Part shown: positions 1,270-12,911 of the stretch, piece after piece | Numbering within the stretch: position 1 is the stretch's first letter | Layout: each line of letters begins with the position of its first letter | NCBI GenBank assembly: GCA_964644385.1 | Contig: CAZXVJ010000006.1 | Span: 28,142 to 92,141 of the forward strand | Direction of reading: 5' to 3' | DNA length: 64,000 nucleotides | Source of the DNA: an uncultured Hyphomonas sp. | GTDB lineage: Bacteria > Pseudomonadota > Alphaproteobacteria > Caulobacterales > Hyphomonadaceae | Position numbers and translations under genes: made by a program | Notes under the pieces: model-generated | Told to the model about the DNA's origin: nothing | The model's database searches: none | What the model saw: the letters and a program-made list of their open reading frames with translations, nothing else

Positions 1270-3870
1270 CTAAGGCAGGCGCGCACATTGGCTTTGAGAT
1301 TGATACGCGTTGAACCGCGAAAGGTCTCCGCTGGATAAATAGTAGTCGGGGTTCGCCTCCACGCCCGCCCTGGTGAGCGCATCCACTTCAGCCAAAAGTG
1401 CACAAATTTCGCTGCGGCTGTCTTCCCTGAAAATCTCATCGCGGCGAACCATGATGAGCGCCTTTTGGAGCCGTAAGGCAATAGATTCATCCCTCACGAT
1501 CTCATTTTCTGGCTGAATATCCAGATAGGCATCTGGAATGGCGGTGGCGCGCGATATGCTTTCGATGGCTGCGTCCAATTCGAAAGACAGCCCCGCTTCG
1601 ACATAGGCTCTATTCTTATGCGTGGCATAAACCAATTGGAGATAGGAATAGGTGTTGTCATCGAAGGGCTTCAGCCGTTCAAGCAAAACCTCCGCCGTAT
1701 CCAAATGCTCTTTGAGCTCATTTGCGATCTTGAGGTTCTCCGCCATTCCGGGTTGTCGTTTCTGAGCCTCCAAAATAGCACGCCCGCCATCTGAGTAAGT
1801 TCCCAGACGTGTCTCAACATCTTGAAGGGATGGTCGCCAGTCCAGTCCCATCACCGTTGTCCCAATCATTGTCTCCAGTGCCCAAAAATAGGTGTATATG
1901 TCCTCCGGATTAGACGGGTTGTCCTCCATCCTGCTTTTTGCGGTTTGAAATCCCGTCTGCACCCACTCGCGTACCGTCTCATATTCTGACCTGTCTGAAA
2001 TCGGCACGGTATCATGTGGTGGATTCCACTTACTCGAAGAGATCGCGTTGCCGGCAAGGTACAGGAAAGACCAATGTGAAATGATGTGGTCGTTATTGGC
2101 CAAATCATCTGCATACAATGCCCTGACGTCTCGCTCGATCGCGATGATTTCATCATCTAACTCTGCGAAACCTTGAGCGTCTGATTTTGCGCCCCAAAGC
2201 TCGAAGCGAATATCCAATAACGCCGCTTTGATCTCGATATTGTCTGGATCATCCTGAAGCAGGTCTTCATAGATCGCGCGCGCCTGCTCTGCGGCTTCTG
2301 GCATTTGTGAGCGGTCATTGAAATGAAAACGATAGACGTAGGCGCGGTTGACCAACTCATCAGCAAACAATTTCCGAACCTGCGGGCTCGCGTCGGGTCT
2401 CCCGGCGAGATCCTTCAATATGTTTAGCGAAATCTCAAACTGTTTTAGGCCCTCCTCAGGGTCACCCAGATTTCGGCCGCCCGACTGGGTCAACAAGTCT
2501 CCCAGTTGTTTGCGGCCCCGTGCATGTTCCAGGTCTAGGCTCGAATCCGCTTTCGCAGCCTCGGCTATAATGTTCAAATAGCGCGAAGACGTTTCGCTAA
2601 CCTTCTGCTGCAATGGCAACGTTCCGGGCAACTTGCTGAGGTCCTCGCCAAGGTCATTAAGTAGGAAACTCGTCAACTCGCGGGTTTCGGCAAATCGCTG
2701 GTCAGCTTGAACCCTTGCCGTCTGCGCCCGCCCATACTGCACCAGCGTTACGGTCAGGGCGGCAACAAGACCAAGCAGCGCCGCGCTCGTCAGGCCCACG
2801 CCAACTTTGTGCCGCGACATGAACTTGCTCACAGCATATTTACGCCCACCATCCACAGCGCTTACAGCGCGCCCGTTTAGATAGTTCTGAACGTCCTCTA
2901 CTAAGCCGCTGACGCTTGTAAAACGGCGCTCAGGTGCCTCGGCGGATGCTTTTTGCATAATCGCGACCAGTTCACCGTCCTGATCATTCGGTTCAATGAG
3001 GGCTTCGAGAAGTTTGCCAAGCGAATACACATCCGACAACGTGTTCGCACGCGCGCCGACAGAACGCTCTGGCGCAGCAAACCCAGGTGTAAAGCTCAGA
3101 CTGGCCAGTGAACCCGATCCCGCCTTTGCCGGGGCCGCCTCATCGAGGGGTTTGGCGATCCCGAAATCAATCAGTTTCACAACACCCGACATATCCACCA
3201 AAACATTGGAGGGGGTGATATCCCGGTGAATGATCTGGTTTTGGTGCGCGTAGGCCACGGCCGAACACGCAGCGATGAACAGTTGAAGACGATCGTTTTT
3301 CGACAAACCGTTTTGGCTCGCCCATTTTGTGATGGGCGAGCCGTCAATAAACTCCATCACAATATAGGGCTCGCCAGTGTCTAACTCACCGCCATCATAC
3401 AGGCGGGCAATGTTAGGATGGCTAAGGCCAGCCAGTGTTTGGCGTTCAATCGCAAATCTCGCGACCAATTTCTCAGACAGTGCGCCCGGGCGAACCACCT
3501 TGATGGCAACCTGGTGATCAAAGTCTCCGCTCGCTCGTTCCCCGCGATACACAGCGCCCATCCCACCGCGACCAATGAGGTCAATTATCCTGTAGGCCCC
3601 AATTTTCTCAGGCACTTTCGTGTCATCCAATGCGTCGTTAAAGGCCCCGCCCGTTCGCAGTTCGACGCGCGCCTCATTATCTCTGGACAGGTAAGTTAGC
3701 GCCCGTTCTATAAGGGCGGCGTCGCCTCGTCCTTCAGCCTCGATCCAGGCGATACGATCATCGGAGGGCACATCCAACGATCGCTCAAACAGCTCCAGCG
3801 CCCGCGTTTCAAGACTATTTTTATCATCTGACATATCGTCCCCCGCCCTCAGGTAATCACATCGCGTCAC
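1270..3870 (-). CDS. Ser/Thr protein kinase of the ECF-sigma-associated type. N-terminal helix motif, Hanks kinase domain, one TM helix, then a ~470-aa extracytoplasmic helical repeat domain.
   Basis: VAIKVV (VAIK), HRDITPSNVLV, DFGIAKP and APE motifs. N-terminus ALELFERSLDVPSDDRIAWIEAEGRGDAALIERALTYL matches the conserved N-terminal segment of kinases encoded next to ECF sigma factors. TM at LTSAALLGLVAALTVTLV. An alternative start at MSDDKNS (about nt 3834) is possible. Confidence 0.85.
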   Translation of the reverse strand: MTRCDYLRAGDDMSDDKNSLETRALELFERSLDVPSDDRIAWIEAEGRGDAALIERALTYLSRDNEARVELRTGGAFNDALDDTKVPEKIGAYRIIDLIGRGGMGAVYRGERASGDFDHQVAIKVVRPGALSEKLVARFAIERQTLAGLSHPNIARLYDGGELDTGEPYIVMEFIDGSPITKWASQNGLSKNDRLQLFIAACSAVAYAHQNQIIHRDITPSNVLVDMSGVVKLIDFGIAKPLDEAAPAKAGSGSLASLSFTPGFAAPERSVGARANTLSDVYSLGKLLEALIEPNDQDGELVAIMQKASAEAPERRFTSVSGLVEDVQNYLNGRAVSAVDGGRKYAVSKFMSRHKVGVGLTSAALLGLVAALTVTLVQYGRAQTARVQADQRFAETRELTSFLLNDLGEDLSKLPGTLPLQQKVSETSSRYLNIIAEAAKADSSLDLEHARGRKQLGDLLTQSGGRNLGDPEEGLKQFEISLNILKDLAGRPDASPQVRKLFADELVNRAYVYRFHFNDRSQMPEAAEQARAIYEDLLQDDPDNIEIKAALLDIRFELWGAKSDAQGFAELDDEIIAIERDVRALYADDLANNDHIISHWSFLYLAGNAISSSKWNPPHDTVPISDRSEYETVREWVQTGFQTAKSRMEDNPSNPEDIYTYFWALETMIGTTVMGLDWRPSLQDVETRLGTYSDGGRAILEAQKRQPGMAENLKIANELKEHLDTAEVLLERLKPFDDNTYSYLQLVYATHKNRAYVEAGLSFELDAAIESISRATAIPDAYLDIQPENEIVRDESIALRLQKALIMVRRDEIFREDSRSEICALLAEVDALTRAGVEANPDYYLSSGDLSRFNAYQSQSQCARLP

Positions 3871-3966: not shown

Positions 3967-4719
3967 TTGTACGCCATTGTGGAATCGATCATGATCAAAC
4001 GTCCCAAGGCCCCTGACATGGCTCCTGTAATTTACGCTATCGGAGATGTTCATGGTGAAGCGCAGCGACTGCTTCAGTTGCATAGCTATATCTTTGAGCG
4101 CCATGAACAGATGCATGCAGACCGTCCTTTGCGCATGGTCCATCTCGGCGACTATGTTGACCGCGGCTCAAACAGCGCGGATGTCATCGACATCATAAGC
4201 GGGCTTGAAAACAGACAAGATATCTCATGCATCAATCTACTCGGAAACCACGAGGAAATGATGCTGAATGGCCTGACACGCGCCACAGCGACCGCTTATG
4301 ACAATTGGCTCATCAATGGCGGTAAAGCGACGATCGAAAGCTATAAAGCACGCGGAGAAGACTCCGTACCGAAGCGCCACATCAATTGGCTAAAAACCTT
4401 GTTGCCAATCCATATTGAAGACACGCCAAAGTTGATCTTCGTGCATGCAGGCATAAATCCATCGCTGTTTCCAAATGAATCTGACGCCACCTATCGTTGG
4501 ACGCGCTCGCCTCGCTTTTTCAACGTTTCCAATTGGTCCAATCCAGATCTCGACGGCTGGACGGTTGTGCATGGTCACACGCCGACAGATGACTTCTATC
4601 CCGAACACAGTTCGGCAAAGGCAGCGCGACTAAACATAGACACAGGCGCGGTATTTGGGGGACGGCTCACCGCAGCCATCTTTGTTCCTGGGGAAGACGT
4701 TCAGTTCATCTTTGCCTAA
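3967..4719 (+). CDS. PPP-family (metallophosphoesterase) Ser/Thr protein phosphatase, PrpA/PrpB / lambda-phosphatase-like.
   Basis: GDVHG, GDYVDRG and GNHE metallophosphoesterase motifs in canonical order. Divergent from the kinase and convergent with the ECF sigma gene. An alternative start at MIKRPK (nt 3991) is possible. Confidence 0.8.
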   Translation: MYAIVESIMIKRPKAPDMAPVIYAIGDVHGEAQRLLQLHSYIFERHEQMHADRPLRMVHLGDYVDRGSNSADVIDIISGLENRQDISCINLLGNHEEMMLNGLTRATATAYDNWLINGGKATIESYKARGEDSVPKRHINWLKTLLPIHIEDTPKLIFVHAGINPSLFPNESDATYRWTRSPRFFNVSNWSNPDLDGWTVVHGHTPTDDFYPEHSSAKAARLNIDTGAVFGGRLTAAIFVPGEDVQFIFA

Positions 4720-4749: not shown

Positions 4750-5340
4750 TTACACGGCGTCGTTTATCGCATCGAGTAACCACGCCCGCGCCACACGCCA
4801 TTGACGCTTCACCGTCGACTCAGATGTTCCGGTCACTTCGGCGACCTCTTCCATCGTCATGCCGCCAAAATACCTCAGCTCAACAATGCTGGCCTTCTCC
4901 GCGTCGATGGCTGCAAGACGTATCAGAGACTTTTCCAACACATCCATGTCCAACCGCTGCGAGCCCCCTTCGAAGCGCGTCACAAGCGTAACCTTGCGAT
5001 GGTGTCGCTTGTCGGTCTTCTTCTTGCGCGCATGATCAATCAACACCCGGCGCATTGCGCGCGCAGATAGCGCGAGGAAGTGGCTTTTGTCCGCCCATTC
5101 AATCTGATCCAGCTGAATTAAACGAAGCGCGGCCTCATTCACCAAATCTCCCGTAGTGAGAGAATTATTACTTTCTGCTCGCAGAAGCGCCGCGGAAACC
5201 TGCCTTAACTCCGAATACAACAGCTCAAACAACGCGTCGCGCGCAGCTGTTTCGCCGCCGCGCCAGCGCTGTAGCAGCGCATTGCTGTCTTCAGAATTTG
5301 TCACCATCGACCGTCTTCCCCCCACGCTAGTAAGCCGCAA
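4750..5340 (-). CDS. ECF-type RNA polymerase sigma factor (sigma-70 regions 2 and 4) of the Ser/Thr-kinase-associated group.
   Basis: LLQRWRGGETAARDALFELLYSEL (region 2), HFLALSARAMRRVLIDHAR, and VELRYFGGMTMEEVAEVTGTSESTVKRQWRVARAWL (region 4 HTH). Adjacent to a kinase carrying the matching N-terminal motif. A probable alternative start at MVTNSE (about nt 5307) exists. Confidence 0.85.
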   Translation of the reverse strand: MRLTSVGGRRSMVTNSEDSNALLQRWRGGETAARDALFELLYSELRQVSAALLRAESNNSLTTGDLVNEAALRLIQLDQIEWADKSHFLALSARAMRRVLIDHARKKKTDKRHHRKVTLVTRFEGGSQRLDMDVLEKSLIRLAAIDAEKASIVELRYFGGMTMEEVAEVTGTSESTVKRQWRVARAWLLDAINDAV

Positions 5341-5456: not shown

Positions 5457-6011
5457 ATGGAAGACGTCGTCAGTGCGATCCCACCCGAAGCGTGGCCCCT
5501 CATAGATATATTATTCAATGTCACGATGGCGGTGACAGGCATTTGGCTGGCATGGACAGTCTTTGTCATTTGGCGACGCAACTCATCGAATTTGACGTCC
5601 ATGAGCAGCGTCTCACCAAATCGAAAAGCAAAACCCGACTTTTTGTCCGTCGATGAAAAGGAACGGCGTGAAGCCATCAAACGCGGCGAAAAGTTTGAAA
5701 AAGACCTCGACACTCGTGAACGAGAAGACGCCAAAGCGCTCAAGAAGGCGGGACGGAAAAAGGAGACCAAAGCCGGTCGTATCGGCCGCATCGTCTCATT
5801 CGGAATGGCGTTATTTTCAATCGCCACGATGATCTCTGGAACGGTTTTTCAGGTCTCAATCATGGGTCGGTATTGGGAACAATATTCTGCCAGTGAGCGC
5901 CTTCTCTCCGTCATCCAGAACCACCCCATCGGCGTTTCGGTCACCGTGCTGGTCATTCTCTACAACGTCATCACTTTCATCACTAACTACACATCGGAAG
6001 GGAGTTCATAA
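5457..6011 (+). CDS. Hypothetical 3-TM membrane protein with a central charged (KR/E-rich) helix. First gene of the operon.
   Basis: GGAGA RBS 7 nt upstream of the ATG. Hydrophobic segments at about aa 14-38, 113-135 and 157-178. Its stop is 1 nt before the next start. Confidence 0.5.
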   Translation: MEDVVSAIPPEAWPLIDILFNVTMAVTGIWLAWTVFVIWRRNSSNLTSMSSVSPNRKAKPDFLSVDEKERREAIKRGEKFEKDLDTREREDAKALKKAGRKKETKAGRIGRIVSFGMALFSIATMISGTVFQVSIMGRYWEQYSASERLLSVIQNHPIGVSVTVLVILYNVITFITNYTSEGSS

Positions 6012-6012
6012 C

Positions 6013-7608
6013 ATGGCTTCTGAACCAGTCATTCTAAGCGACCCACGGATCATCGCCGAATTTTTGCGCCAAACAGAATTCCAGGGTTTTTTCGAAAAGC
6101 GCTTCGCCGTTCCCCCAGACTATGCCGCCCTACTCTTTAAAAACGGACAGCTGATTGATGCCTTCAAAGGCGGACACTTCTCAGTTGGCGGCTTGGTCGA
6201 CAAGCTCAAAGGCGTCATTGGCGGCTCCACTCATGTCTCAATGATGATCGCGGATCTGAAACCGTTTCAAGTGCAAACGATGATTCAAGGCCGCAGCAAA
6301 GACAATGTCGATATTGTGGGCGTTGCCACACTGGAACTGCAGGTCAATCCAGATAAGCCGTCGAACTTCTTGGGCATGATGCACGGCGTGGATCGCGCAC
6401 CGGGCGACGCAAACGAGTTGGGCCGCAAATCTCTGACAAAAGGTCAGATTCTTGCGCGCATTCGCCCTCACCTATCAGACCGCGTTTTTGAAGCCACGAT
6501 TGGCCGGATCGACGCAATTGATCTGCGCGGTGACGTTGGCCTGCAAGACAAATTGCAAGCTGACATGATGCAAGAGGTGGAACGGGTCGCCGGCGATCTT
6601 GGTCTCTTGGTTCGGGCGGCGTCTATCGAATGGGCGGAAAACGCTGAAGAAGCCGCGCATCAGGCCCGGGCTGACGCGTCCCGCCAGCAAGACAATATCG
6701 ATTTTGAGATCGAAATGGCAAGACGCTCAGCTGAGCGCGCTCAAGACGCTATGATCTACAACATCAACAGCGAAGTCGATATCGCCAAGCTTCAGAACGC
6801 CAGTGAAGACGAACTCAAACACATGGCGCTCAACAGCGAGATCACCTTCCTGGACGCCCGCGAAGACGCAAAACGTCGTCAGGAAATGGATGAGTTGGAT
6901 CACCAGATTGCCTTTCTTGAAAAAGAACGCCGAACAACGTTTCAGAACGCGATTGAAACCGCGGAAAACGAAACGGATCTCAAACAGATCCAGCAGAAGC
7001 AGCTCAAACTCGACACCGAGATGGATGCGATGCGCCAGTTGCATCTGCAAAAAATGCAGCAATCCGGCGCATACAGCGAAGCGGAAGTCACCGCAAAAAT
7101 CCAAAAGCAACAGCGTGAACACATCTCTGCCCTGCAAGACATTGAGTTACGTGCAGAAAAAGTGCGTTCCGAATTAAAGCGAATTGAACGCAAAGACTCC
7201 CAGGACTTTGAACTAAAAAAACTTGGCGTTCAGCAGTCGATGAGTTCGGAACAAATTCTGGCTGTTCAGGCGGGGCTATCGCCGGATGTCGCTGCCGTAC
7301 TGGCCGAGCGAGCCCGCGCCGATTCCGATGGCAATGAAACCACGATGAAACTGATGCGCGAAATGGTAGAGGCAGCAACCGCCAGCCAAATCCGCTCAGA
7401 GGCGCAGGCCCGCGAGATGTTTAAAATGGGCATGGATGGCACGGTCGGCGTCGCAGCAGGCGCAGGAGGGGGACGCGCAAGCGGAGCGGCTGGGTCATCC
7501 AATAACGACTCAGCCGCTCAATCCTCAGTCGACTGTCCAAAATGCAGCACCACAGCGGACGCAATGTCAAAATTTTGCGCCAAGTGCGGCCACAAGCTTC
7601 GGACCTGA
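6013..7608 (+). CDS. SPFH (band-7/flotillin-like) domain protein with a long coiled-coil and a C-terminal zinc ribbon.
   Basis: GGAAGGGAG RBS before the ATG at 6013. The six-frame ORF starts at 5893, but the internal Met 41 at 6013 is the supported start. SPFH core-like TMIQGRSKDNVDIVGVATLELQVN (compare stomatin ILTKD.V.V.VD.VVYYRV). About 250 aa of heptad-like E/K/Q/R-rich sequence follow. C-terminus is VDCPKCSTTADAMSKFCAKCGHKL (CxxC..CxxC). Confidence 0.6.
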   Translation: MASEPVILSDPRIIAEFLRQTEFQGFFEKRFAVPPDYAALLFKNGQLIDAFKGGHFSVGGLVDKLKGVIGGSTHVSMMIADLKPFQVQTMIQGRSKDNVDIVGVATLELQVNPDKPSNFLGMMHGVDRAPGDANELGRKSLTKGQILARIRPHLSDRVFEATIGRIDAIDLRGDVGLQDKLQADMMQEVERVAGDLGLLVRAASIEWAENAEEAAHQARADASRQQDNIDFEIEMARRSAERAQDAMIYNINSEVDIAKLQNASEDELKHMALNSEITFLDAREDAKRRQEMDELDHQIAFLEKERRTTFQNAIETAENETDLKQIQQKQLKLDTEMDAMRQLHLQKMQQSGAYSEAEVTAKIQKQQREHISALQDIELRAEKVRSELKRIERKDSQDFELKKLGVQQSMSSEQILAVQAGLSPDVAAVLAERARADSDGNETTMKLMREMVEAATASQIRSEAQAREMFKMGMDGTVGVAAGAGGGRASGAAGSSNNDSAAQSSVDCPKCSTTADAMSKFCAKCGHKLRT

Positions 7609-7612
7609 TCTG

Positions 7613-9187
7613 ATGTCATCATCACCTCTTGAAATCTGTTCGTCTTGCGGCGCCACTATACCCGAAAACGCACGCTTTTGCGTTGAATGCGGCATCACAC
7701 TGGGATCTGGTCCGGTCGATACGCCGACGATGCACACGGTCAGCGGTCTCGAAACCGTCTTGCCGGACGATCAGGGCCACGCGCTCGCCAATGCGTCGTC
7801 ATCTGTTCTCAGCCCAGGCGACGTCATCGCTGACAAGTTTGAGATCGAGCGCGTCATCGGCCAAGGCGGCATGGGCACAGTCTACAAAGCAAAGGAGATT
7901 CTATCCGGCCAAACGGCAGCATTGAAAGTCATCTCGCAAAAGTTTGTCGGCAGCGAAAAAGCCGTCAAACGCTTGATCGAAGAAGGCATGACCACGCGGG
8001 GCATTTCACACCCCAATGTGGTCCAGATCTTCGACATCGGTCTGCACGGCACCCAGCCCTACATTGCCATGGAGTATTTAGACGGGCGGCCACTGCATGT
8101 TTGGCGCGGTGAGAAGATGGCCAATGGTGAAGCGGTTCCCGTTCGCGTCGCCGGCCAGATTATCAAAGAGGTGCTCCACGGACTTCAAGCCGCTCATGAT
8201 GCAGGGGTTATCCACCGCGACCTGAAGCCTGAAAACATCATGCTGATGGATGAGCCGTCGCAATCCTCTGCAAAAATCAAAATCGTTGATTTCGGCATTG
8301 CGCTCGCCACCAAGACAGCCACAGCGTCTGGCACCGGAACTGGGCTCGGCACGCAGCTTTACATGGCGCCAGAGCAGATCCGAAACGCCAATGCAGCAAA
8401 CGCCTCAGCAGATCTCTACTCATTGTCGAAAATCTTCTACGAATTGATCGTTGGTGTGCTGCCAACAGGTCATTGGCAACCGCCATCAGGCGGGCGTTCA
8501 GATGTGCCACGCGGCATAGATATGCTGATCGAGAAAGGTCTATCCGCCAATCGAGACATGCGCCCACAAAGCGCTGCGGCGTATAAGCAAGCGCTTATCG
8601 CGGGCATGAACCATCAGATGCCGTTACCCAAGCAGGATACAGGCAAGAATTGGAAAACGCCCGTCCTGCTCGCGGGTGGCGCACTGGCGGTCATACTGGG
8701 CGCAGTGGTCATCAACGACGCTGGATCATCGCCCCATCAATCTGGTGAACTGCAGCGTGATCAAAACGACTCAACTTTCGAGTTTTCGCCACCCAATCCC
8801 GAACGCGTTGACGTATCGCCGACAGAGCCGGTCACGCGCGATGTGCAGATTGGCCCTGGCACAGAAACGCCTCAGCCGCGCTTTGCCTACTATAATGGCC
8901 GCTGGGCTGACCCCTTCGGCGGAGCCTATGACATCACCATAAATGACAATGGAAACTTATCAGGCAATGGATATTTGGGAGATGGCACAAGCGTCTCAAT
9001 TGCAGGCCAACTGAGCGGCAACAATCTATCTTATTCACTTGGCATGTTCGGTGAAGCGTTCGCTGAGGGGACAGCAACGAAGACAGACCAGTGTCACTTC
9101 AACTTTACGACCGCCAATTACTTGACCGGCGGCTATTCTAACGGTGTCTTTCACGTCAATCACCAACCTGGGCAACCGTGTCCATGA
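7613..9187 (+). CDS. Zinc-ribbon-containing Ser/Thr protein kinase with one TM helix and a ~140-aa periplasmic C-terminal domain.
   Basis: Internal Met 60 of ORF 7436..9187 sits 5 nt after the upstream stop. N-terminal CSSCGATIPENARFCVECG zinc ribbon. Kinase motifs GQGGMGTVYKA, ALKVI, HRDLKPENIML, DFGIA, APE. TM at VLLAGGALAVILGAVVI. Confidence 0.85.
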   Translation: MSSSPLEICSSCGATIPENARFCVECGITLGSGPVDTPTMHTVSGLETVLPDDQGHALANASSSVLSPGDVIADKFEIERVIGQGGMGTVYKAKEILSGQTAALKVISQKFVGSEKAVKRLIEEGMTTRGISHPNVVQIFDIGLHGTQPYIAMEYLDGRPLHVWRGEKMANGEAVPVRVAGQIIKEVLHGLQAAHDAGVIHRDLKPENIMLMDEPSQSSAKIKIVDFGIALATKTATASGTGTGLGTQLYMAPEQIRNANAANASADLYSLSKIFYELIVGVLPTGHWQPPSGGRSDVPRGIDMLIEKGLSANRDMRPQSAAAYKQALIAGMNHQMPLPKQDTGKNWKTPVLLAGGALAVILGAVVINDAGSSPHQSGELQRDQNDSTFEFSPPNPERVDVSPTEPVTRDVQIGPGTETPQPRFAYYNGRWADPFGGAYDITINDNGNLSGNGYLGDGTSVSIAGQLSGNNLSYSLGMFGEAFAEGTATKTDQCHFNFTTANYLTGGYSNGVFHVNHQPGQPCP

Positions 9188-10317
9188 GCGCCGTGTTGAC
9201 CCCTTCCCCAAGCGCCGTTTGTTGCAACCGATCTGCACTCGACTGTGACGCGGGCTTTTGTACCGATTGCGGAAAATCGCTGATCCGCTGCATGGCCTCG
9301 GCAGAGTGTGGGTCATTGCTGGATGACCAAGGCGTCTGCCAGATTTGCGTCAGACCAGAATTGGCTCTTGATGCGGGCGCGGCAGCAACGGTTCGAGAGG
9401 GCGGCAAACTCGCTCTACCGCTCACCATCAAAAACGCGTCCCCCGTCGGTCGCCCCCTTTTCATCACGGGGCTTTGGATGAAGGAAGACGATGGAGAGTT
9501 GCGGGAAGTTCCGCTTCCCTTTAAGCGCCTGGACTCCGGCGAAGCGTCGAATGTTGGCATCCGTACAGGTGTGCTAGAATATGCTGGCGTGCACCAGGTG
9601 GATCTCCGCATTGCCGTTGCCACGCGCTATCAGTGGCGCCAGGAAGAATACGTCTTCTCCAGCGCGATCATCTTCCCGGTCGAGACCAAAGACCCAGACG
9701 GCCCGGTCACGAATATTCATGTCGATGGCGACGCAGGCCCCGGCTTCACTGTCTACAACCCAACGCGCATTGAGAACGAGCGCGCAACCGGCAACAGCGC
9801 GCACATTACCCCCATTTCGCTCAATATCCGGCGCGCCGATCAGTCTGAACGCACCTTAAAAAAACGAGGCTACGAATCTGGCCTGAGCGTGCCCCGGACG
9901 GTGACCTTCGAGTGGCAAGGTTTTGAAGACGGCGACGCCCCCTTTGTCGGCCCAATCTTAAGACCATCAGGGCTGCTTTGCTTTGGCCGCAACGCCACAT
10001 CGTTGGAGACAGGTGCAAACGATGCGCGTCTGCTTGTCAGCGGCCCAGACGGAATCGACGAAGCGGCGTCCCTTGCCATTTCTCGCCAACATTTCACGCT
10101 CTACGTGGAAAGCGGTCGACTTATGTTGCGCGTCGACAGCCGCTACGGGCTGCGTGTCAATGATCGGTCTCTTCAGCGCACCGAAACAAGCCTCCTCCAA
10201 AGCGGGGACATCATCCGCCCTTTGAGAAAATCACCCGACGCGCTGGCCATTTCTGTGCAATTCGAAACCCAGCAAGACATCGTCACGCTGATTGTCATAC
10301 GAAAGCAATCGACATGA
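9184..10317 (+). CDS. Cys-rich/zinc-ribbon N-terminal protein with a C-terminal FHA (phosphothreonine-binding) domain.
   Basis: ATG 9184 overlaps the kinase stop (ATGA); GTG 9178 is an alternative start. N-terminus has 9 Cys in 60 aa (CDAGFCTDCG..CGSLLDDQGVCQIC). C-terminus GRN..11..LLVSGPDG..6..SRQHFTLYVESGRLMLRVDSRYGLRVNDRSL..LQSGDIIRPL fits the FHA signature (GR..SRxH..StNG-like..N..GD.I). Confidence 0.75.
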   Translation: MSAVLTPSPSAVCCNRSALDCDAGFCTDCGKSLIRCMASAECGSLLDDQGVCQICVRPELALDAGAAATVREGGKLALPLTIKNASPVGRPLFITGLWMKEDDGELREVPLPFKRLDSGEASNVGIRTGVLEYAGVHQVDLRIAVATRYQWRQEEYVFSSAIIFPVETKDPDGPVTNIHVDGDAGPGFTVYNPTRIENERATGNSAHITPISLNIRRADQSERTLKKRGYESGLSVPRTVTFEWQGFEDGDAPFVGPILRPSGLLCFGRNATSLETGANDARLLVSGPDGIDEAASLAISRQHFTLYVESGRLMLRVDSRYGLRVNDRSLQRTETSLLQSGDIIRPLRKSPDALAISVQFETQQDIVTLIVIRKQST

Positions 10318-10844
10318 CACATGCATCGACATTGATCCTGCGCATAGCGCCAGTCGTCTTCATCGGCTGTCTCGCCTTAGCGGCTTGCAAACCGAGCAAC
10401 GTGCTCCGCCCTGACCAGTCACCCACACCGTCATTGACACAAAAAGAGCCAGCGGCACCGATCGCCAAACCAGCACCCCGTATTGGTTTTCCTTCCGGCG
10501 TTTGGGTCGAAGGAGATGACACAGTCTGGTCTGTTGCTGTCGACGGGAACCGCGTCCTTGCCAAAGGAGAATGCGGCCTCGGACAAGGCCTCACGCTTAC
10601 CGGAACAATAAAGAACGTCGCGCTGACCTATACCGTCAACACAGATGACCAAACCGGCATCGGAAAAGGACAAGCCGTCCTCGTCGGCGATGACCACGCT
10701 TACTTCGATGTCAGCGGCGGCATGCAAACCCACGGGCTGTTTCACTTCAATCACACCGATTTGAAAACAGCCTGCAGCCCAAAATTTACGCGCCGCGGAC
10801 CGATTGATATTCGCCCAGCGCCCAACACACGCCCCGGAGAGTGA
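10314..10844 (+). CDS. Predicted lipoprotein of unknown function.
   Basis: Signal peptide plus lipobox LALAAC. ATG overlaps the upstream stop (ATGA). No recognisable catalytic motif. Gly/Thr-rich beta-like composition. Confidence 0.55.
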   Translation: MTHASTLILRIAPVVFIGCLALAACKPSNVLRPDQSPTPSLTQKEPAAPIAKPAPRIGFPSGVWVEGDDTVWSVAVDGNRVLAKGECGLGQGLTLTGTIKNVALTYTVNTDDQTGIGKGQAVLVGDDHAYFDVSGGMQTHGLFHFNHTDLKTACSPKFTRRGPIDIRPAPNTRPGE

Positions 10845-10846
10845 GC

Positions 10847-11911
10847 ATGACAAACGCCCAAACCCGATACCGCATTGATGGCTATCTTCGTACCGATGAC
10901 GACCAACCCATCGCAACGCTCGAAATGACCAGCAAACCTAGCTTATCTGATTGGATAGATCTCAGGCCGCTCTGCTCTCCTGTTGAAGATCAGGGGCATG
11001 TCGGCTCATGCACCGCGAACGCCATTGTCGGTGCACTCGAATATCTGCAAATCGCCAGCGGCGGTCCATCTACGGATCTCTCGAGGTTGTTCGTCTACTA
11101 CAATGCCCGCAGGTTCTCAGATCGAGAGGGGGATGACTGCGGCGCCTCTATGGCGCACGCAATGGCATCGCTCCTCGCATTCGGGGCGTGCCCAGAATCG
11201 GTTTGGCCCTATGATGAGGCACGTTGGAGTAAAAAGCCGCCCGACGGCTGCTATCAGAGCGCCGTGCCTTTTGCAGGCCTGCACTATGCCAGCGTCGCCC
11301 CCAATGATGAGCGGAAATACGTCCTGGCTTCAGGCCTACCCATTATCTTTGGTATGGGTGTGCCGGAACATCTCTTGATGAACGTTGGCGCACAAACCGG
11401 CTACATGCCCGCCCCGGCAGACGGCAATTGGGAGCCCGCATCCAGCGGGCATGCAATGCTGATTGTTGGGTACAGCGACGCGAACAATGCATGGCTGGTT
11501 AGAAATTCATGGGGAACCGGTTTCGGTGAAGGCGGTCACGTTTGGATCGACTATGCGGTTATGGATCACTATGCGATCGGTGCGCAGGATTTTTGGACGG
11601 TCGGTCCGCTCGATCGGAACAAATTCTTCCGTCTTGCCGGTCCCAGTTCGCAATCTGTACAGCAACACGCCGTCCAGCACGCCACGCCGGCGACCCGCAA
11701 CTTTATGGATCAAGTCCGCAAACATCTTCGCCACGACCTCGAAACGCATCTCGACGCGACCCGTCAGGGCCTGCGCGATCGCCTTCGCGGTCCCGGAGTG
11801 GGCGGCGGATACGACAAAGGCCCCGGCGCGGGGGGCGGCTATGACAAAGGACCGGGCGTTGGCGGCGGATATGACCGCGGCCCCGGCGCAGGAGGTGGAT
11901 ACGATGACTAA
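10847..11911 (+). CDS. Papain-like cysteine peptidase (C1 family), copy 1. No signal peptide or prodomain, with 4x GPGxGGGYD(K/R) C-terminal repeats.
   Basis: DWIDLRPLCSPVEDQGHVGSCTANAI (papain mature N-terminus pattern DWR..VTPVKNQG.CGSCWAF; Q and C spaced 6 apart). HAMLIVGY (catalytic His). NSWGTGFGEGGHVWI (Asn plus Trp, compare NSWGTGWGENGYIRI). GGAGAG RBS 6 nt upstream of ATG 10847; GTG 10841 is an alternative start. Confidence 0.8.
   Translation: MTNAQTRYRIDGYLRTDDDQPIATLEMTSKPSLSDWIDLRPLCSPVEDQGHVGSCTANAIVGALEYLQIASGGPSTDLSRLFVYYNARRFSDREGDDCGASMAHAMASLLAFGACPESVWPYDEARWSKKPPDGCYQSAVPFAGLHYASVAPNDERKYVLASGLPIIFGMGVPEHLLMNVGAQTGYMPAPADGNWEPASSGHAMLIVGYSDANNAWLVRNSWGTGFGEGGHVWIDYAVMDHYAIGAQDFWTVGPLDRNKFFRLAGPSSQSVQQHAVQHATPATRNFMDQVRKHLRHDLETHLDATRQGLRDRLRGPGVGGGYDKGPGAGGGYDKGPGVGGGYDRGPGAGGGYDD
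11789..11908 (+). repeat. In-frame tandem repeat of four 30-nt units encoding GPG(V/A)GGGYD(K/R/D).
   Basis: Units ggtcccggagtgggcggcggatacgacaaa, ggccccggcgcggggggcggctatgacaaa, ggaccgggcgttggcggcggatatgaccgc, ggccccggcgcaggaggtggatacgatgac read directly from the sequence. Confidence 0.85.
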
Positions 11912-12911
11912 ACTAATTGACGGCGTCCTATTGGGCGGCTGGATTCCAGACGAGGTTGACGAGGCGATTCCAACACTCAAAACCGTAGCCGACATTCAAA
12001 CCCCGAACCTGGTCGACCTGAGGCCAAAATGCTCCCCGGTTGAAAATCAAGCGGCTGTCGGCTCCTGCGTCGCCAATGCTATCGTCGGCGCTCTCGAATA
12101 TCATCAGATCCGAAATGGCTCGACCATGAAAGATCTCTCCCGTCTCTTCGTTTATTACAATGCGCGCCGCCTCGGCGAGCGTATTGGCGAGGCAGGCACC
12201 ACCATTCAGCGGGCGATGGCCGCCATCCTCGGATGGGGCGCCTGCCCAGCTTCGATGTGGCCCTACCAAACCGCCATGGTAGATGAGCGTCCCAGCGAGG
12301 CTTGCTACAAAGCGGCGCAAATGTTCAAAGGCGTCCAGATTGCCCAAACCAGCTGGGGCGCTGGATGCCGTGAAGCGCTCGCCAACGGTTTGCCGGTTGC
12401 GTTCGGCATGAATGTCGCCATGCAAGACTTCAACAGCAATGGTCCGGCTGGCCAAACCGGCATGCTCAAGCCCCCATTGGACGGCAACTGGGCAGACCCA
12501 AGCGGCGGGCATGCCATGCTGATCGTGGGATATGACGACGCGCGCCACGCGTGGCTCGTGCGAAATTCATGGGGAGAGGCCTGGGGAGAAGGCGGGCACG
12601 TCTGGATCGACTATGATTATCTCAACCACTACATCGCATATGGACGCCGCGCCGCGCCATACGTGATTGGCCAAATTCAAGATATTCGAGCCTTTGAATT
12701 GAGCGGTGCCACAACAGAACAAGTTGTGGCGCAGGCTCTCTCGCGCGCGCCAGCGCAGGTTCAGAGCGAAATGGGCGCGCTCCGCCAACATCTTGCTTCA
12801 GACCTGGATTCAAGCCTCTCAGACGCCCGCAAAAGCATCCGCGATAGGCTACGTGGGCCGGGCGCAGGTGGCGGCTATGATAAAGGCCCTGGCGCGGGCG
12901 GAGGATATTAA
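11904..12911 (+). CDS. Papain-like cysteine peptidase (C1 family), copy 2, paralog of the upstream gene. 2x GPGAGGGYD repeats at the C-terminus.
   Basis: Internal Met 148 of ORF 11463..12911. Start overlaps the upstream stop by 8 nt. LVDLRPKCSPVENQAAVGSCVANAI, HAMLIVGY and NSWGEAWGEGGHVWIDY keep all catalytic residues. Tail motif LRDRLRGPGAGGGYDKGPGAGGGY is shared with copy 1. Confidence 0.8.
   Translation: MTKLIDGVLLGGWIPDEVDEAIPTLKTVADIQTPNLVDLRPKCSPVENQAAVGSCVANAIVGALEYHQIRNGSTMKDLSRLFVYYNARRLGERIGEAGTTIQRAMAAILGWGACPASMWPYQTAMVDERPSEACYKAAQMFKGVQIAQTSWGAGCREALANGLPVAFGMNVAMQDFNSNGPAGQTGMLKPPLDGNWADPSGGHAMLIVGYDDARHAWLVRNSWGEAWGEGGHVWIDYDYLNHYIAYGRRAAPYVIGQIQDIRAFELSGATTEQVVAQALSRAPAQVQSEMGALRQHLASDLDSSLSDARKSIRDRLRGPGAGGGYDKGPGAGGGY
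12854..12908 (+). repeat. In-frame tandem repeat of 1.8 units of the same 30-nt GPGAGGGYDK motif at the end of the second peptidase gene.
   Basis: gggccgggcgcaggtggcggctatgataaa then ggccctggcgcgggcggaggatat, followed directly by the stop codon. Confidence 0.85.

What the first reader, a model, noticed from the sequence alone, without database searches (positions are those of the whole stretch)
6013..10317. Three consecutive proteins each carry a zinc-ribbon module (C-terminal on the SPFH protein, N-terminal on the kinase, N-terminal on the FHA protein)
Seen in sequence: CPKCSTTADAMSKFCAKCGHK at the end of the SPFH-coiled-coil protein. CSSCGATIPENARFCVECG at the start of the kinase. A 9-Cys stretch (CDAGFCTDCG...CGSLLDDQGVCQIC) at the start of the FHA protein.

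Inference: a shared small Zn-binding module on three adjacent partners suggests a common docking or oligomerisation interface that brings the kinase and its FHA reader onto the SPFH scaffold. The kinase also has a TM helix and a periplasmic ~140-aa Gly/Asn-rich tail, so it likely senses an extracytoplasmic cue.
Basis: partly seen in the sequence, partly recalled or inferred. Interest (0 to 1): 0.7.

Follow-up and report, generated by a model that had tools for sequence, protein, structure and literature searches.

The report
Zinc-ribbon-tagged SPFH, kinase, FHA, protease system
Three neighbouring genes for a membrane-scaffold protein, a signalling kinase and a phospho-reader each carry a small, strictly conserved zinc-binding tag, and they belong to a conserved, apparently undescribed gene cluster that also encodes cysteine proteases, in which the tag most likely holds the parts together.

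Summary
The SPFH-type protein (6013-7608) ends in a Cys4 ribbon, the Hanks kinase (7613-9187) starts with one, and the FHA protein (9184-10317) starts with an 8-Cys module; the ninth Cys is not conserved. Every ligand cysteine is invariant across about 60-75 distinct orthologues.

The three genes form the core of a syntenic cluster seen in about 75 loci: a 3-TM protein, SPFH-coiled coil-ZnR, 2Zn-Ig-FHA, ZnR-kinase and one or two cytoplasmic papain-like peptidases. In 11 of 60 distinct peptidases there are N-terminal ribbons too. Close relatives add an ECF43 sigma factor, a PknS-like kinase and a PPP phosphatase.

The SPFH label fails Pfam but is confirmed by fold. SPFH, kinase and peptidase ribbons are one family; the FHA module is only half similar and is fused to an Ig-like domain.

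The docking idea is plausible but untested. Support comes from recurrence of the triad in a Planctomycetota locus, the B. subtilis YdjG/YdjI pair and the ArnA zinc finger-ArnB crystal structure.

FHA-kinase coupling is more likely through a threonine (Thr48) invariant in 62/62 kinases. I rate it a new variant of known kinds, of moderate to high interest.

The parts
5457..6011 (+). Small 3-TM membrane protein ('TM183') with a ~70-aa charged segment between TM1 and TM2. Putative membrane anchor for the TM-less SPFH protein.
   Evidence: Hydropathy gives three TM segments. It lies immediately upstream of the SPFH gene in essentially every locus that extends far enough. No Pfam family.
6013..7608 (+). 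SPFH-fold protein without a TM helix. Layout: SPFH domain (~aa 35-207), long coiled coil (aa 211-481), Gly/Ala-rich linker, C-terminal Cys4 zinc ribbon.
   Evidence: AF2 model m1c07bcb2f05f. Foldseek PDB matches with E <= 0.001 are prohibitin, HflK/C, stomatin, flotillin, QmcA and major vault protein, E down to 1.5e-8. No Band_7 Pfam hit. No TM segment.
7534..7587 (+). C-terminal zinc ribbon of the SPFH protein (C508, C511, C522, C525), followed by the conserved tail GHKLRT.
   Evidence: Invariant in 64/64 aligned sequences, 118/120 homologues and 68/69 locus ORFs. These are the only four Cys in the protein.
7613..9187 (+). Hanks-type Ser/Thr kinase. Layout: N-terminal zinc ribbon, variable linker with an invariant Thr, kinase domain (aa 76-288 by Pfam), TM helix (aa 349-367), periplasmic two-Cys domain.
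   Evidence: Pkinase 150.8 bits. Catalytic K, HRD, DFG and APE motifs invariant. TM segment.
7637..7690 (+). N-terminal zinc ribbon of the kinase (C9, C12, C23, C26).
   Evidence: Zn_Ribbon_1 28.7 bits against a 25-bit cut-off. Invariant in 62/62 distinct kinases. hhalign against the SPFH ribbon profile gives 98.8% probability over 26 columns.
7754..7756 (+). Thr48 in the motif G-L-E-T-V. It is the only invariant residue in the variable ribbon-to-kinase linker and is a candidate phospho-Thr docking site for the FHA domain.
   Evidence: T invariant in 62/62 kinases, often followed by D at +2 or +3.
8870..9184 (+). Conserved periplasmic domain of the kinase (~105 aa, two conserved Cys, ends ...HVNHQPGQPCP).
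   Evidence: Conserved in the long kinase paralogues. BLASTP 1e-5 to the adjacent lipoprotein.
9184..10317 (+). Cytoplasmic adaptor made of an 8-Cys Zn module, an Ig-like beta-sandwich and an FHA domain. Its ATG overlaps the kinase stop codon (ATGA).
9220..9348 (+). 8-Cys module (C13, C14, C26, C29 / C36, C42, C52, C55). The first half resembles the other ribbons and the second half does not.
   Evidence: Invariant Cys. hhalign of the kinase ribbon against the first half gives 97.8%; against the second half, no similarity. Weak DZR hits in 43/68 members.
10069..10218 (+). [quoted passage not shown]
   Evidence: Pfam FHA at aa 296-345. G268, R269, S300 and R301 invariant, H303 nearly invariant.
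10314..10844 (+). Lipoprotein carrying the same periplasmic domain as the kinase C-terminus.
   Evidence: Signal peptide with lipobox Cys. BLASTP 1e-5 to the kinase tail. Present in many loci.
10841..11911 (+). Cytoplasmic papain-family (C1) cysteine peptidase with the catalytic Cys/His/Asn motifs. It has a conserved C-terminal helix ending ...RDRLRG followed by GPGxGGGYD repeats.
   Evidence: Peptidase_C1 52.1 bits. No signal peptide or TM. A C1 peptidase follows the kinase in nearly every locus. 11 of 60 distinct orthologues carry N-terminal zinc ribbons.
11904..12911 (+). Second, paralogous cytoplasmic C1 peptidase with the same C-terminal tail.
   Evidence: Peptidase_C1 58.7 bits. Synteny.
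12913..13404 (+). 4-TM protein ending ARRDFGVGDGFGG ('TM150'), an accessory member of the cluster.
   Evidence: Hydropathy. Present in many loci at variable positions.
4750..5340 (-). ECF43-type sigma factor, divergently transcribed from the operon.
   Evidence: PF07638 122.9 bits. It carries 'SLTTGDLVNEA', which I read by eye as the region-2.2 position where ECF43 factors have the phospho-acceptor Thr (PMC13147305). Adjacent in Hyphomonadaceae-type loci.
1270..3870 (-). PknS/PknT-like Hanks kinase (N-terminal extension, kinase domain, one weak sub-threshold TPR hit at aa 527-566; no TM test was run on this protein). Presumed cognate kinase of the ECF43 sigma factor. It has no zinc ribbon.
   Evidence: Pfam Pkinase 115.7 bits and TPR_19 18.1 bits against a 25-bit cut-off. 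Synteny. No CxxC...CxxC motif.
3967..4719 (+). Calcineurin-like (PPP-type) phosphoesterase, a likely Ser/Thr phosphatase arm of the module.
   Evidence: Metallophos 57.2 bits. Recurs in several loci.

Best explanation
**What it is.** The three genes are the core of a conserved membrane-associated signalling and proteolysis system. Its parts are:
- a small 3-TM protein;
- a TM-less SPFH scaffold with a long coiled coil, ending in a flexibly tethered zinc ribbon;
- a receptor-type Hanks kinase that begins with the same kind of ribbon;
- a cytoplasmic adaptor (8-Cys Zn module, Ig-like domain, FHA domain);
- one or two cytoplasmic papain-like peptidases, which carry N-terminal ribbons in some lineages.

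**Shown here.**
- The Zn-ligand cysteines are invariant.
- The SPFH, kinase and peptidase ribbons belong to one sequence family.
- The gene set is syntenic over about 75 loci.
- The kinase and the FHA domain keep their catalytic and phospho-Thr-binding residues.
- One threonine (Thr48) in the ribbon-to-kinase linker is invariant.

**Inferred mechanism.**
1. The SPFH protein oligomerises on the cytoplasmic face of the membrane, as solved SPFH cages do, anchored by the 3-TM protein. Its C-terminal ribbons cluster at the membrane-distal end of the assembly.
2. The ribbons act as phosphorylation-independent tethers that keep kinase, adaptor and, where tagged, peptidase at this assembly.
3. An envelope signal, read by the kinase's periplasmic domain and its lipoprotein paralogue, triggers autophosphorylation of Thr48.
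4. The FHA domain then locks onto phospho-Thr48. This gives a two-step 'tether then lock', as in ArnA-ArnB.
5. The outcome is a change in the activity or access of the C1 peptidases.
6. In Hyphomonadaceae the operon is probably transcribed under the adjacent ECF43 sigma factor and its PknS-like kinase.
For: - **Cys conservation:**
- **Synteny:** 3-TM protein, SPFH-ZnR, FHA, ZnR-kinase, C1 peptidase in about 75 loci with 32-100% FHA identity.
- **Ribbons on peptidases:** 11 of 60 distinct C1 peptidases.
- **One ribbon family:** SPFH vs kinase 98.8%, kinase vs peptidase 96.9%, kinase vs first half of the FHA module 97.8%.
- **SPFH fold, no TM:**
- **FHA fold and GR/SRxH residues:**
- **Invariant Thr48:** 62/62 kinases.
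- **Recurrence in distant lineages:**
  - Planctomycetota locus L082: ZnR-SPFH-ZnR, ZnR-Ig-FHA, kinase with two ribbons, CHAT protease.
  - L080: 2ZnR-SPFH-ZnR next to a ZnR-kinase.
  - L085: an SPFH protein with three 'WKACPxCG' ribbons next to a membrane protein carrying the same ribbon subtype.
- **Fusion:** one contig (L081) has the SPFH ribbon fused in frame to the FHA Zn module.
- **Experimental precedents:**
  - ArnA zinc-ribbon docking on ArnB, followed by FHA-pThr locking (PMC12852372).
  - B. subtilis SamI/YdjI, a TM-less SPFH protein with a C-terminal zinc finger, recruited by YdjG (two ribbons) and YdjH.
- **ECF43 context:**. A conserved promoter-like motif lies upstream of the 3-TM gene.
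Against: - No interaction was computed or measured, and metal binding is inferred from Cys patterns only.
- All these ribbons belong to the very large generic PF13240/DZR family. High profile similarity between them is therefore expected and does not prove a shared partner.
- The hhalign statistics are single-pair values on short Cys-rich profiles and are inflated.
- The FHA Zn module appears rigidly attached to the Ig-like domain and is only half similar to the others. It may be structural rather than a free docking tag.
- 49 of 60 distinct C1 peptidases have no ribbon, so a ribbon is not needed to belong to the system.
- Two remote SPFH-ZnR loci (L083, L084) show no ribbon-bearing neighbour.
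- The fusion in L081 is a single contig at 2.8x coverage.
- The +3 position after Thr48 is P or G in the window's subgroup, not a classical FHA preference.
Confidence: 0.5

Rival explanations
1. The ribbons are individual membrane-targeting or anchor-binding modules. Each would bind anionic lipid or the charged cytoplasmic segment of the 3-TM protein. Co-localisation would then come from a common surface, not from ribbon-to-partner docking on the SPFH assembly.
For: - The SPFH protein, FHA protein and peptidases have no TM segment yet belong to a membrane system.
- The 3-TM protein with a ~70-aa charged segment is an obligatory neighbour.
- In B. subtilis the membrane proteins YdjG and YdjH recruit the TM-less SPFH protein.
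Against: - The kinase is already membrane-anchored yet always keeps its ribbon.
- By analogy with solved SPFH cages, the SPFH C-terminus should be membrane-distal (inference from the structures matched).
- Most peptidases lack a ribbon.
Confidence: 0.2
2. The Cys4 sites are thiol or zinc switches. Oxidants or zinc limitation would release Zn and change the activity or assembly of kinase, adaptor and scaffold together, making the system a redox or metal-stress sensor.
For: - Multiple Cys4 sites are concentrated in one stress-type operon next to an ECF sigma factor.
- A few FHA-family members give weak hits to the PknG rubredoxin family.
- From general knowledge, Cys4 zinc sites act as redox switches in ZAS anti-sigma factors, Hsp33 and the PknG rubredoxin domain.
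Against: - Nothing in the cluster is redox-specific: there are no thioredoxin, peroxidase or metal-transport genes in the conserved core.
- The ribbons match generic structural ribbon families.
- The kinase has its own periplasmic sensor domain.
Confidence: 0.1
3. The ribbons have no shared function. PF13240-type ribbons are common terminal decorations of bacterial signalling proteins that stabilise termini or linkers. Each was kept for protein-specific structural reasons, and the system is held together by FHA-pThr and SPFH-specific contacts only.
For: - Zinc ribbons at protein termini are reported in unrelated systems: DO-GTPases and actinobacterial kinases (PMC7159879) and PspC (PMC11237479).
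- The FHA module looks like part of a rigid Zn-Ig unit.
- 49 of 60 peptidases do without a ribbon.
- Some remote SPFH-ZnR proteins have no ribbon-bearing neighbour.
Against: - Only these genes carry canonical ribbons in the 64-kb window.
- Ribbons on all three partners are retained without exception across 32-100% identity.
- They recur on the same three protein classes in Planctomycetota.
- The ribbon subtype matches between neighbours in L085.
- Experimental docking roles are known in ArnA and in the YdjG/YdjI pair.
Confidence: 0.15
4. The cluster is an anti-phage or other conflict system. The kinase senses infection or envelope damage and the cysteine peptidases are abortive-infection effectors. 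The ribbons would serve as effector-adaptor tags in the manner of effector-associated domains.
For: - The effector is a protease: C1 here, CHAT in L082.
- L082 lies beside a transposase, an integrase fragment and a Cas3-like helicase.
- The kinase gives generic hits to PADLOC kinase models.
- The same small domain shared between core and effector follows the logic described for conflict systems (PMC7159879).
Against: - Only the kinase domain hits PADLOC. No other component does.
- There are no copies on plasmids or phages.
- Within Hyphomonadaceae the cluster sits at a fixed chromosomal position next to ECF43, with an identity gradient that looks vertical.
- The effector does not vary within the family.
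Confidence: 0.1

Closest known systems
B. subtilis PspA-YdjGHI (SamGHI) module: YdjI/SamI (SPFH with C-terminal zinc finger), YdjG (two zinc ribbons, NTF2-like domain, TM) and YdjH
   Same: - A TM-less SPFH protein with a low-complexity linker and a C-terminal zinc ribbon.
- An operon partner that starts with two zinc ribbons.
- Separate small membrane proteins that recruit the SPFH protein.
- An envelope-stress sigma-factor context: sigma-W there, ECF43 here.
   Different: - There is no PspA/ESCRT-III gene in this cluster.
- The double-ribbon partner here is an Ig-FHA adaptor, not an NTF2-TM protein.
- A Hanks kinase and papain-like peptidases are obligatory members here.
- The coiled coil is much longer.
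Sulfolobus ArnA (zinc-ribbon finger, linker, FHA) with ArnB and the kinase ArnC
   Same: - An adaptor combining an N-terminal zinc ribbon with a C-terminal FHA domain, working with a Hanks-type kinase.
- Experiment shows the ribbon is a phosphorylation-independent docking module and the FHA domain gives tight binding after Thr phosphorylation (PMC12852372).
   Different: - ArnA has one RanBP2-type ribbon on a disordered linker. Here there is an 8-Cys module joined to an Ig-like domain.
- The ArnA partner is a vWA protein, and there is no SPFH protein or protease.
- It is archaeal motility regulation.
SPFH cages that organise proteases (HflK/C-FtsH, stomatin/QmcA-NfeD, prohibitin-m-AAA)
   Same: - SPFH domain followed by a coiled coil, matching these structures (Foldseek E 1e-8 to 1e-6).
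- Genetic pairing of an SPFH protein with a protease.
   Different: - Those SPFH proteins have their own TM anchor and no zinc ribbon.
- Their proteases are membrane AAA+ or serine (NfeD) proteases, not cytoplasmic papain-like enzymes.
- No kinase or FHA layer is involved.
Archaeal 'Meth_adaptin' ESCRT loci with SPFH-coiled coil-zinc ribbon proteins (Makarova et al. 2024)
   Same: The SPFH, coiled coil, zinc ribbon architecture, in a locus where another component also carries a zinc ribbon (PMC10936438).
   Different: The context is archaeal ESCRT and adaptin. No FHA, kinase or C1 peptidase is reported in that particular locus type.
ECF43 sigma factors with cognate Hanks kinases (EcfP/PknT, EcfK/PknS)
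   Same: - The upstream divergent pair is a PF07638 sigma factor with a Thr-containing motif read by eye as region 2.2.
- Its partner is an ~800-aa kinase with an N-terminal extension and a weak TPR hit.
   Different: - This is the presumed regulator of the operon, not part of the ribbon-tagged core.
- It is absent from the flanks of the more distant loci.

Membership tests
Zinc ribbon (Pfam Zn_Ribbon_1 PF13240 / DZR PF12773) | Two CxxC knuckles about 10-15 residues apart | tested here: met
   SPFH protein: CPKC-x10-CAKC. Kinase: CSSC-x10-CVEC. The FHA protein's first half is CC-x11-CTDC and its second half is C-x5-C-x9-CQIC; both are non-canonical.
Zinc ribbon (Pfam Zn_Ribbon_1 PF13240 / DZR PF12773) | Score above the Pfam gathering threshold | tested here: inconclusive
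   Kinase: met (28.7 against 25). SPFH window protein: not met (17.0 against 25; DZR 18.6 against 27.3), although 62-64 of 64 homologues match, with best E 6e-7. FHA window protein: no hit; 43/68 relatives give weak DZR hits, best E 0.018.
Zinc ribbon (Pfam Zn_Ribbon_1 PF13240 / DZR PF12773) | Ligand cysteines conserved in orthologues | tested here: met
   All 4, 4 and 8 Cys are invariant.
Zinc ribbon (Pfam Zn_Ribbon_1 PF13240 / DZR PF12773) | Binds one Zn per Cys4 site | not testable with these tools
   Needs metal analysis of purified domains.
SPFH / Band 7 | Sequence match to Band_7 (PF01145) | tested here: not met
   No hit for the window protein at E <= 1, and none for any of 64 aligned homologues at E <= 0.01. 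A profile search of PDB sequences found only ribbon matches. A few database homologues carry precomputed PF01145 hits.
SPFH / Band 7 | SPFH alpha/beta fold followed by a long coiled-coil helix | tested here: met
   The Foldseek matches with E <= 0.001 are prohibitin, HflK/C, stomatin, flotillin, QmcA and major vault protein, apart from two entries the table does not name. E down to 1.5e-8, probability 1.00. The secondary structure fits.
SPFH / Band 7 | Forms a large ring or cage oligomer on a membrane | not testable with these tools
   Only monomer prediction was available.
YdjI/SamI-type SPFH modules | TM-less SPFH protein with a low-complexity linker and a C-terminal zinc ribbon, plus a neighbour with two N-terminal ribbons and a small membrane partner | tested here: met
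   here. Architecture of the B. subtilis proteins taken.
YdjI/SamI-type SPFH modules | Operon includes PspA (ESCRT-III) | tested here: not met
   None of the seven proteins from 5457 to 12911 that were scanned (TM150 was scanned separately, no hit) matches a PspA family.
YdjI/SamI-type SPFH modules | Sequence orthology to YdjI | not tested
Hanks-type Ser/Thr kinase | Pkinase domain with catalytic Lys, HRD, DFG and APE motifs | tested here: met
   Pkinase 150.8 bits. K105, HRDLKPE, DFG and APE are invariant.
FHA domain | FHA fold with the phospho-Thr-binding residues GR and SxxH | tested here: met
ArnA-like ribbon-FHA adaptors | N-terminal zinc ribbon and C-terminal FHA domain in one polypeptide, encoded next to a Hanks kinase | tested here: met
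ArnA-like ribbon-FHA adaptors | The ribbon docks on a vWA partner (ArnB) | tested here: not met
   No vWA protein in the cluster.
ECF43 sigma factor with Hanks kinase | PF07638-type ECF sigma factor, adjacent Hanks kinase, Thr replacing acidic residues in region 2.2 | tested here: met
   PF07638 122.9 bits. The neighbouring 866-aa kinase is present. 'SLTTGDLVNEA' compared by eye with the QTTA consensus. Group assignment by phylogeny was not done.
Known anti-phage defence systems (PADLOC) | Components match defence-system models beyond a generic kinase domain | tested here: not met
   Only the kinase domain hits (PD-T4-6, mad6). The other six proteins have no hit.

The most novel reading that the evidence does not exclude
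The PF13240-type ribbon may work as a matching 'address tag'. It would assemble a closed or semi-closed SPFH compartment on the cytoplasmic face of the membrane. Inside or on it would sit a receptor kinase, an FHA adaptor and cysteine proteases, forming a phosphorylation-gated proteolytic signalosome. The ribbons clustered at the SPFH cage apex would provide the multivalent docking platform. This would be a general, ancient design principle shared by the Hyphomonadaceae cluster, the Planctomycetota CHAT/FHA/kinase loci and the Bacillus YdjGHI module. It would be analogous in logic to death-fold adaptor signalling.
Probability: 0.25. Interest if true: 0.8.

Novelty: new variant of a known kind. 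Interest (0 to 1): 0.6.

Why it matters
**Open questions it touches**
- It is still unclear what bacterial SPFH/flotillin-type scaffolds organise. It is also unclear why so many bacterial signalling proteins begin or end with a small zinc ribbon.
- This cluster gives a compact, genetically linked test case. One ribbon family marks a TM-less SPFH scaffold, a receptor kinase and, in some lineages, the protease output. A half-related 8-Cys module marks the FHA reader.
- Every ligand cysteine and one candidate phospho-threonine are invariant.

**If the ribbons prove to be assembly tags**
- This would explain how TM-less SPFH proteins such as B. subtilis SamI/YdjI recruit clients.
- It would extend the 'SPFH cage regulates a protease' theme to cytoplasmic papain-like enzymes under Ser/Thr phosphorylation control.
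- It would give a rule for predicting partners from shared ribbons.

**Practical point**
Some Hyphomonadaceae are, from general knowledge, genetically tractable, so the predictions can be tested directly.

Tried and rejected
**Checks that failed or were blocked**
- Pfam, NCBIfam and a PDB sequence-profile search could not confirm the SPFH label. Only the fold search did.
- PADLOC returned only generic kinase-domain hits, so the cluster cannot be filed as a known defence system.
- tblastn of the FHA protein against plasmids and of the SPFH protein against phages found nothing.
- The genome-contig scan with a single protein found only two loci. The metagenome scan with the alignment was needed to sample more widely.
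- The afdb50 fold library was unavailable.
- Model coordinates are not exposed, so Cys-Cys distances in the 8-Cys module could not be measured, and the pairing into two Cys4 sites is inferred from spacing only.
- The protein look-up for P0072 was not on record.

**Ideas considered and rejected**
- 'FHA protein stands alone next to ECF43 without SPFH or kinase', suggested by L002. Locus L014 shows this is a rearranged cluster with SPFH, kinase and peptidase just beyond the phosphatase gene.
- The ninth Cys as a ligand: it is not conserved.
- A nucleic-acid-binding, TFIIB-like role for the ribbons. No evidence for it came up in this membrane-signalling context. For ArnA, the authors found no DNA binding.

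**Literature**
Searches of the held library for the combination SPFH or Band-7 with FHA, kinase and papain-like peptidase found no description of this cluster.

Full report
**1. Observation**

The region 6013-10317 holds three co-directional genes.
- 6013-7608 encodes a 531-aa protein.
- 7613-9187 encodes a 524-aa Hanks kinase.
- 9184-10317 encodes a 377-aa FHA protein. Its ATG overlaps the kinase stop codon (ATGA).

- CPKC-x10-CAKC lies at the C-terminus of the first protein (nt 7534-7587).
- CSSC-x10-CVEC lies at the N-terminus of the kinase (nt 7637-7690).
- Nine Cys lie in aa 13-55 of the FHA protein.

A scan of the whole 64-kb window for CxxC-x6-20-CxxC in long open frames finds only the first two motifs in real genes.

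Pfam support is uneven.
- The kinase ribbon scores above threshold (Zn_Ribbon_1 28.7 against 25 bits).
- The first protein scores below threshold (17-18.6 bits).
- The FHA N-terminus gives no hit in the window protein.
- At family level, 62-64 of 64 homologues of the first protein hit Zn_Ribbon_1 or DZR. 43 of 68 FHA-protein homologues hit DZR weakly.

**2. Conservation**

The FHA protein has 78 database relatives, the named ones from Henriciella, Hyphomonas and other Hyphomonadaceae. The first protein has 421.

| Module | Conserved Cys | Counts |
|---|---|---|
| First protein, C-terminus | C508, C511, C522, C525 | 64/64 aligned; 118/120 listed homologues; 68/69 locus ORFs |
| Kinase, N-terminus | C9, C12, C23, C26 | 62/62 distinct kinases |
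| FHA protein, N-terminus | C13, C14, C26, C29, C36, C42, C52, C55 | 72/76 ORFs fit the full pattern |

The exceptions in the first protein are truncated or frameshifted, and the four FHA exceptions are fragments. The ninth Cys of the FHA protein (C21) is variable.

**3. What the proteins are**

*First protein.* The 'SPFH' label could not be verified by sequence.
- There is no Band_7 hit for the window protein or for any of 64 homologues.
- A family profile finds only ribbon matches among PDB sequences.

An AF2 model was built from 64 sequences. It has pLDDT 70.8 overall and about 80-90 in the N-terminal domain and helices. It shows an alpha/beta domain, about 270 residues of helix, a disordered Gly/Ala linker and a small C-terminal hairpin. 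The Foldseek PDB matches with E <= 0.001 are prohibitin, HflK/C, stomatin, flotillin, QmcA and major vault protein, apart from two entries the table does not name, with E down to 1.5e-8. The protein has no TM segment, and its only four Cys are the ribbon.

*Kinase.* It has all catalytic motifs, one TM helix (aa 349-367), a low-complexity linker and a conserved periplasmic domain of about 105 aa with two Cys. That domain is homologous to the lipoprotein encoded two genes downstream (BLASTP 1e-5).

*FHA protein.* The model is confident (pLDDT 87, pTM 0.84). It has three parts.
- A compact Cys-rich N-terminus.

The phospho-Thr-binding residues G268-R269 and S300-R301-x-H303 are conserved.

**4. 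The genes belong to a larger conserved system**

Genome, assembly and metagenome look-ups supplied the 79 related loci, plus the window, that went into the synteny script. A BLAST-based synteny script shows one core in essentially every locus that is long enough. These loci span 32-100% FHA-protein identity.

The core order is:
1. a ~183-aa 3-TM protein;
2. the SPFH-coiled coil-ribbon protein;
3. the FHA protein;
4. one or two ribbon-kinases;
5. one or two cytoplasmic papain-family (C1) peptidases.

Only the window and its closest relative L001 place a kinase before the FHA gene.

The closer, Hyphomonadaceae-type loci add further genes.
- A divergently transcribed PF07638 sigma factor. It carries an ECF43-type Thr motif (SLTTGDLVNEA), which I place by eye at the region-2.2 position.
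- An ~800-aa PknS/PknT-like kinase.
- A PPP-type phosphoesterase.
- The lipoprotein, a 4-TM protein and a second lipoprotein.

A conserved TGACCC-N17-CGCCT motif lies upstream of the 3-TM gene.

The peptidases keep the catalytic Cys/His/Asn motifs and have no signal peptide. They share a conserved C-terminal helix ending RxRLRG. 11 of the 60 distinct peptidases carry one or two N-terminal zinc ribbons, and one 1213-aa protein carries more.

Locus L002 seemed to show an FHA gene alone beside the sigma factor. L014 shows that this is a rearranged cluster.

**5. Are the Zn modules 'the same module'?**

| Profile pair (hhalign) | Probability | Note |
|---|---|---|
| SPFH ribbon vs kinase ribbon | 98.8% | E 1e-16, 26 columns |
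| Kinase ribbon vs peptidase ribbon | 96.9% | |
| Kinase ribbon vs first half of FHA module | 97.8% | matches mainly the A-x-F-C-x-x-C-G knuckle |
| Any ribbon vs second half of FHA module (C-x5-C...CxxC) | none | |

These are single-pair statistics on short Cys-rich profiles, and all the ribbons fall within the huge generic PF13240/DZR family. They show family membership, not special kinship.

The modules also differ in anatomy.
- The SPFH and kinase ribbons sit on variable linkers of 25-60 aa.
- The last Cys of the FHA module is three residues from the first strand of the Ig-like domain.
- The whole FHA protein is predicted as one confident unit.

**6. Evidence bearing on function**

(a) *The link recurs in distant lineages.* A profile search of 1.84 billion representatives found 935 hits. 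They include remote full-length SPFH-coiled coil proteins with one to three C-terminal ribbons and sometimes one or two N-terminal ribbons. Six of these (five remote, plus the P0202 fusion, which is a family member) were looked up in their contigs.

| Locus | Content |
|---|---|
| L082 (cluster-mate named Planctomycetota) | ZnR-SPFH-ZnR, then ZnR-Ig-like-FHA-FHA, then a kinase with two ribbons; a divergent CHAT protease |
| L080 | 2ZnR-SPFH-ZnR followed by a ribbon-kinase |
| L085 | SPFH protein with three ribbons of the unusual 'WKACPxCG' subtype, followed by a GYF-ribbon-TM protein with the same subtype |
| L083, L084 | no ribbon-bearing neighbour |
| L081 | the SPFH ribbon fused in frame to the FHA Zn module (family member, see b) |

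(b) *A possible fusion.* One low-coverage contig (L081) encodes the SPFH ribbon fused in frame to the FHA Zn module. As a singleton it is weak evidence.

(c) *An invariant threonine.* In the otherwise unalignable ribbon-to-kinase linker, one Thr (Thr48, G-L-E-T-V) is invariant in 62/62 kinases. It is often followed by Asp at +2 or +3. This is what an autophosphorylation site read by the adjacent FHA domain would look like.

(d) *Experimental precedents.*
- The ArnA-ArnB co-crystal shows the N-terminal zinc-ribbon finger of a ribbon-FHA adaptor docking on its partner without phosphorylation. The FHA domain gives tight binding after phosphorylation (PMC12852372).
- In B. subtilis, SamI/YdjI is a TM-less SPFH protein with a low-complexity linker and a C-terminal zinc finger. 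It is recruited to the membrane by YdjG, which has two ribbons, and by YdjH.
- Archaeal ESCRT loci also contain SPFH-coiled coil-ribbon proteins.

(e) *Mobility and defence.* PADLOC matches only the kinase domain, and no plasmid or phage copies were found.

**7. Most likely mechanism (steps marked)**

*Shown:* invariant Zn-type ligands; one ribbon family on scaffold, kinase and some peptidases; obligatory synteny; competent kinase, FHA and peptidase residues; invariant Thr48.

*Inferred:*
1. The SPFH protein oligomerises on the inner face of the membrane, anchored by the 3-TM protein. By analogy with the solved HflK/C, flotillin and prohibitin cages matched, its C-terminal ribbons cluster at the membrane-distal end.
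2. The ribbons serve as phosphorylation-independent tethers that hold kinase, FHA adaptor and tagged peptidases at this assembly.
3. A periplasmic signal activates the kinase, and Thr48 is phosphorylated.
4. The FHA domain locks onto phospho-Thr48, giving 'tether then lock'.
5. Peptidase activity or access changes.
6. In Hyphomonadaceae, ECF43 and its PknS-like kinase control expression.

I put about 0.5 on this overall. The anatomical statements are close to certain. The tethering role of the ribbons is about even odds.

The rivals are lipid or anchor binding by each ribbon, thiol or zinc switching, no common function, and a conflict system with protease effectors. None is excluded, and each is listed with its refuting test.

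**8. Comparison with known systems and novelty**

In working logic the cluster is closest to YdjGHI/SamGHI and to ArnA/ArnB/ArnC.
- From YdjGHI it shares the ribbon-tagged TM-less SPFH protein, a double-ribbon partner and membrane recruiters.
- From ArnA/ArnB/ArnC it shares the ribbon-FHA adaptor with a Hanks kinase.
- It also shares the SPFH-protease pairing of HflK/C-FtsH and QmcA-NfeD.

It is not a member of any of these.
- It has no PspA.
- It has no vWA partner.
- It has no AAA+ or NfeD protease.
- It has no Band_7 sequence match.

Full-text searches found no description of an SPFH-FHA-kinase-papain peptidase cluster. I therefore class it as a new variant of known kinds.

The docking interpretation is reasonable and now has comparative and literature support. 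It remains untested and needs two corrections: the FHA module is different in kind, and the FHA-kinase link probably runs through Thr48.

Noticed in passing
window 8870-9184 and 10314-10844: The kinase's periplasmic C-terminal domain (ending ...FHVNHQPGQPCP) is homologous to the lipoprotein encoded two genes downstream (...LFHFNHTDLKTAC). BLASTP gives 1e-5. This may be a sensor domain paired with a free periplasmic paralogue. Neither has a Pfam family.
   Followed up: partly
window 11740-11911 and 12850-12911; also the C-termini of C1 peptidases in L001, L007, L010-L013 and L043: The C1 peptidases end in a conserved helix ...(A/S)KxxIRDRLRG. In the Hyphomonadaceae it is followed by 1-4 tandem GPG(A/V)GGGYD(K/R) repeats. 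More distant relatives end at RLRG(K) or continue with a charged helix instead. The function is unknown, and the SPFH protein also ends in a basic tail, GHKLRT.
   Followed up: partly
window 1270-5340: An ECF43-type sigma factor (PF07638, with the 'SLTTGD' Thr motif), a PknS/PknT-like ~866-aa kinase and a PPP-family phosphoesterase flank the operon. They are syntenic in the closer relatives only.
   Followed up: partly
window ~5395-5430 (upstream of the 3-TM gene); alignment A6: A promoter-like motif TGACCC(G/A)xT-N~17-CGCCT is conserved in five loci between the sigma-factor gene and the 3-TM gene. It may be the ECF43-dependent promoter.
   Followed up: no
L081 1455-4286: A single 7.9-kb metagenomic contig at 2.8x coverage encodes a 943-aa in-frame fusion of the SPFH-ribbon protein and the FHA protein (...CGHKMRT|CQKTAASDPDGTFCGYCG...). 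It could be a real Rosetta-stone fusion or an assembly or sequencing deletion.
   Followed up: partly
L082 2070-11553: A distant locus (a 90%-identity cluster-mate of the SPFH protein is named Planctomycetota by NCBI) has a divergent CHAT (caspase-like) protease, then ZnR-SPFH-ZnR, ZnR-Ig-like-FHA-FHA and a kinase with two ribbons plus Sel1 and FGE-sulfatase domains. A transposase, an integrase fragment and a Cas3-like helicase lie nearby.
   Followed up: partly
L085 7001-10230: A remote SPFH protein with three C-terminal ribbons of the subtype CxxC-x5-WKACPxCG is followed by a GYF-domain membrane protein. That protein's single ribbon is the same subtype (CRQCREPILPAWKACPACG). Ribbon subtype therefore seems to match between neighbours in this one example.
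   Followed up: no
window 9184-9187, 10314-10317, 10841-10844, 11904-11911: Successive genes from the kinase through the FHA protein, lipoprotein and first peptidase to the second peptidase overlap by 4-8 nt (ATGA-type overlaps). This suggests translational coupling and fixed stoichiometry.
   Followed up: no
L001 6640-7857; L003 11152-14377; L047, L054, L062, L065: Many loci carry two ribbon-kinase paralogues. One has the long periplasmic domain and one has a short tail or a DUF805-like membrane tail. One L003 copy has a degenerate glycine loop and may be a pseudokinase.
   Followed up: no
window 13634-14281: The ribosomal protein L21 homologue has a ~110-aa Ala/Lys-rich C-terminal extension ending in a conserved-looking domain, so it is longer than typical L21. 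It is unrelated to the finding.
   Followed up: no
PDB 9sfa_A: The best PDB sequence match to the SPFH protein's ribbon profile is the C-terminus (aa 344-376) of a 386-aa 'putative regulatory protein' (E 0.002). The identity of that entry was not followed up.
   Followed up: no
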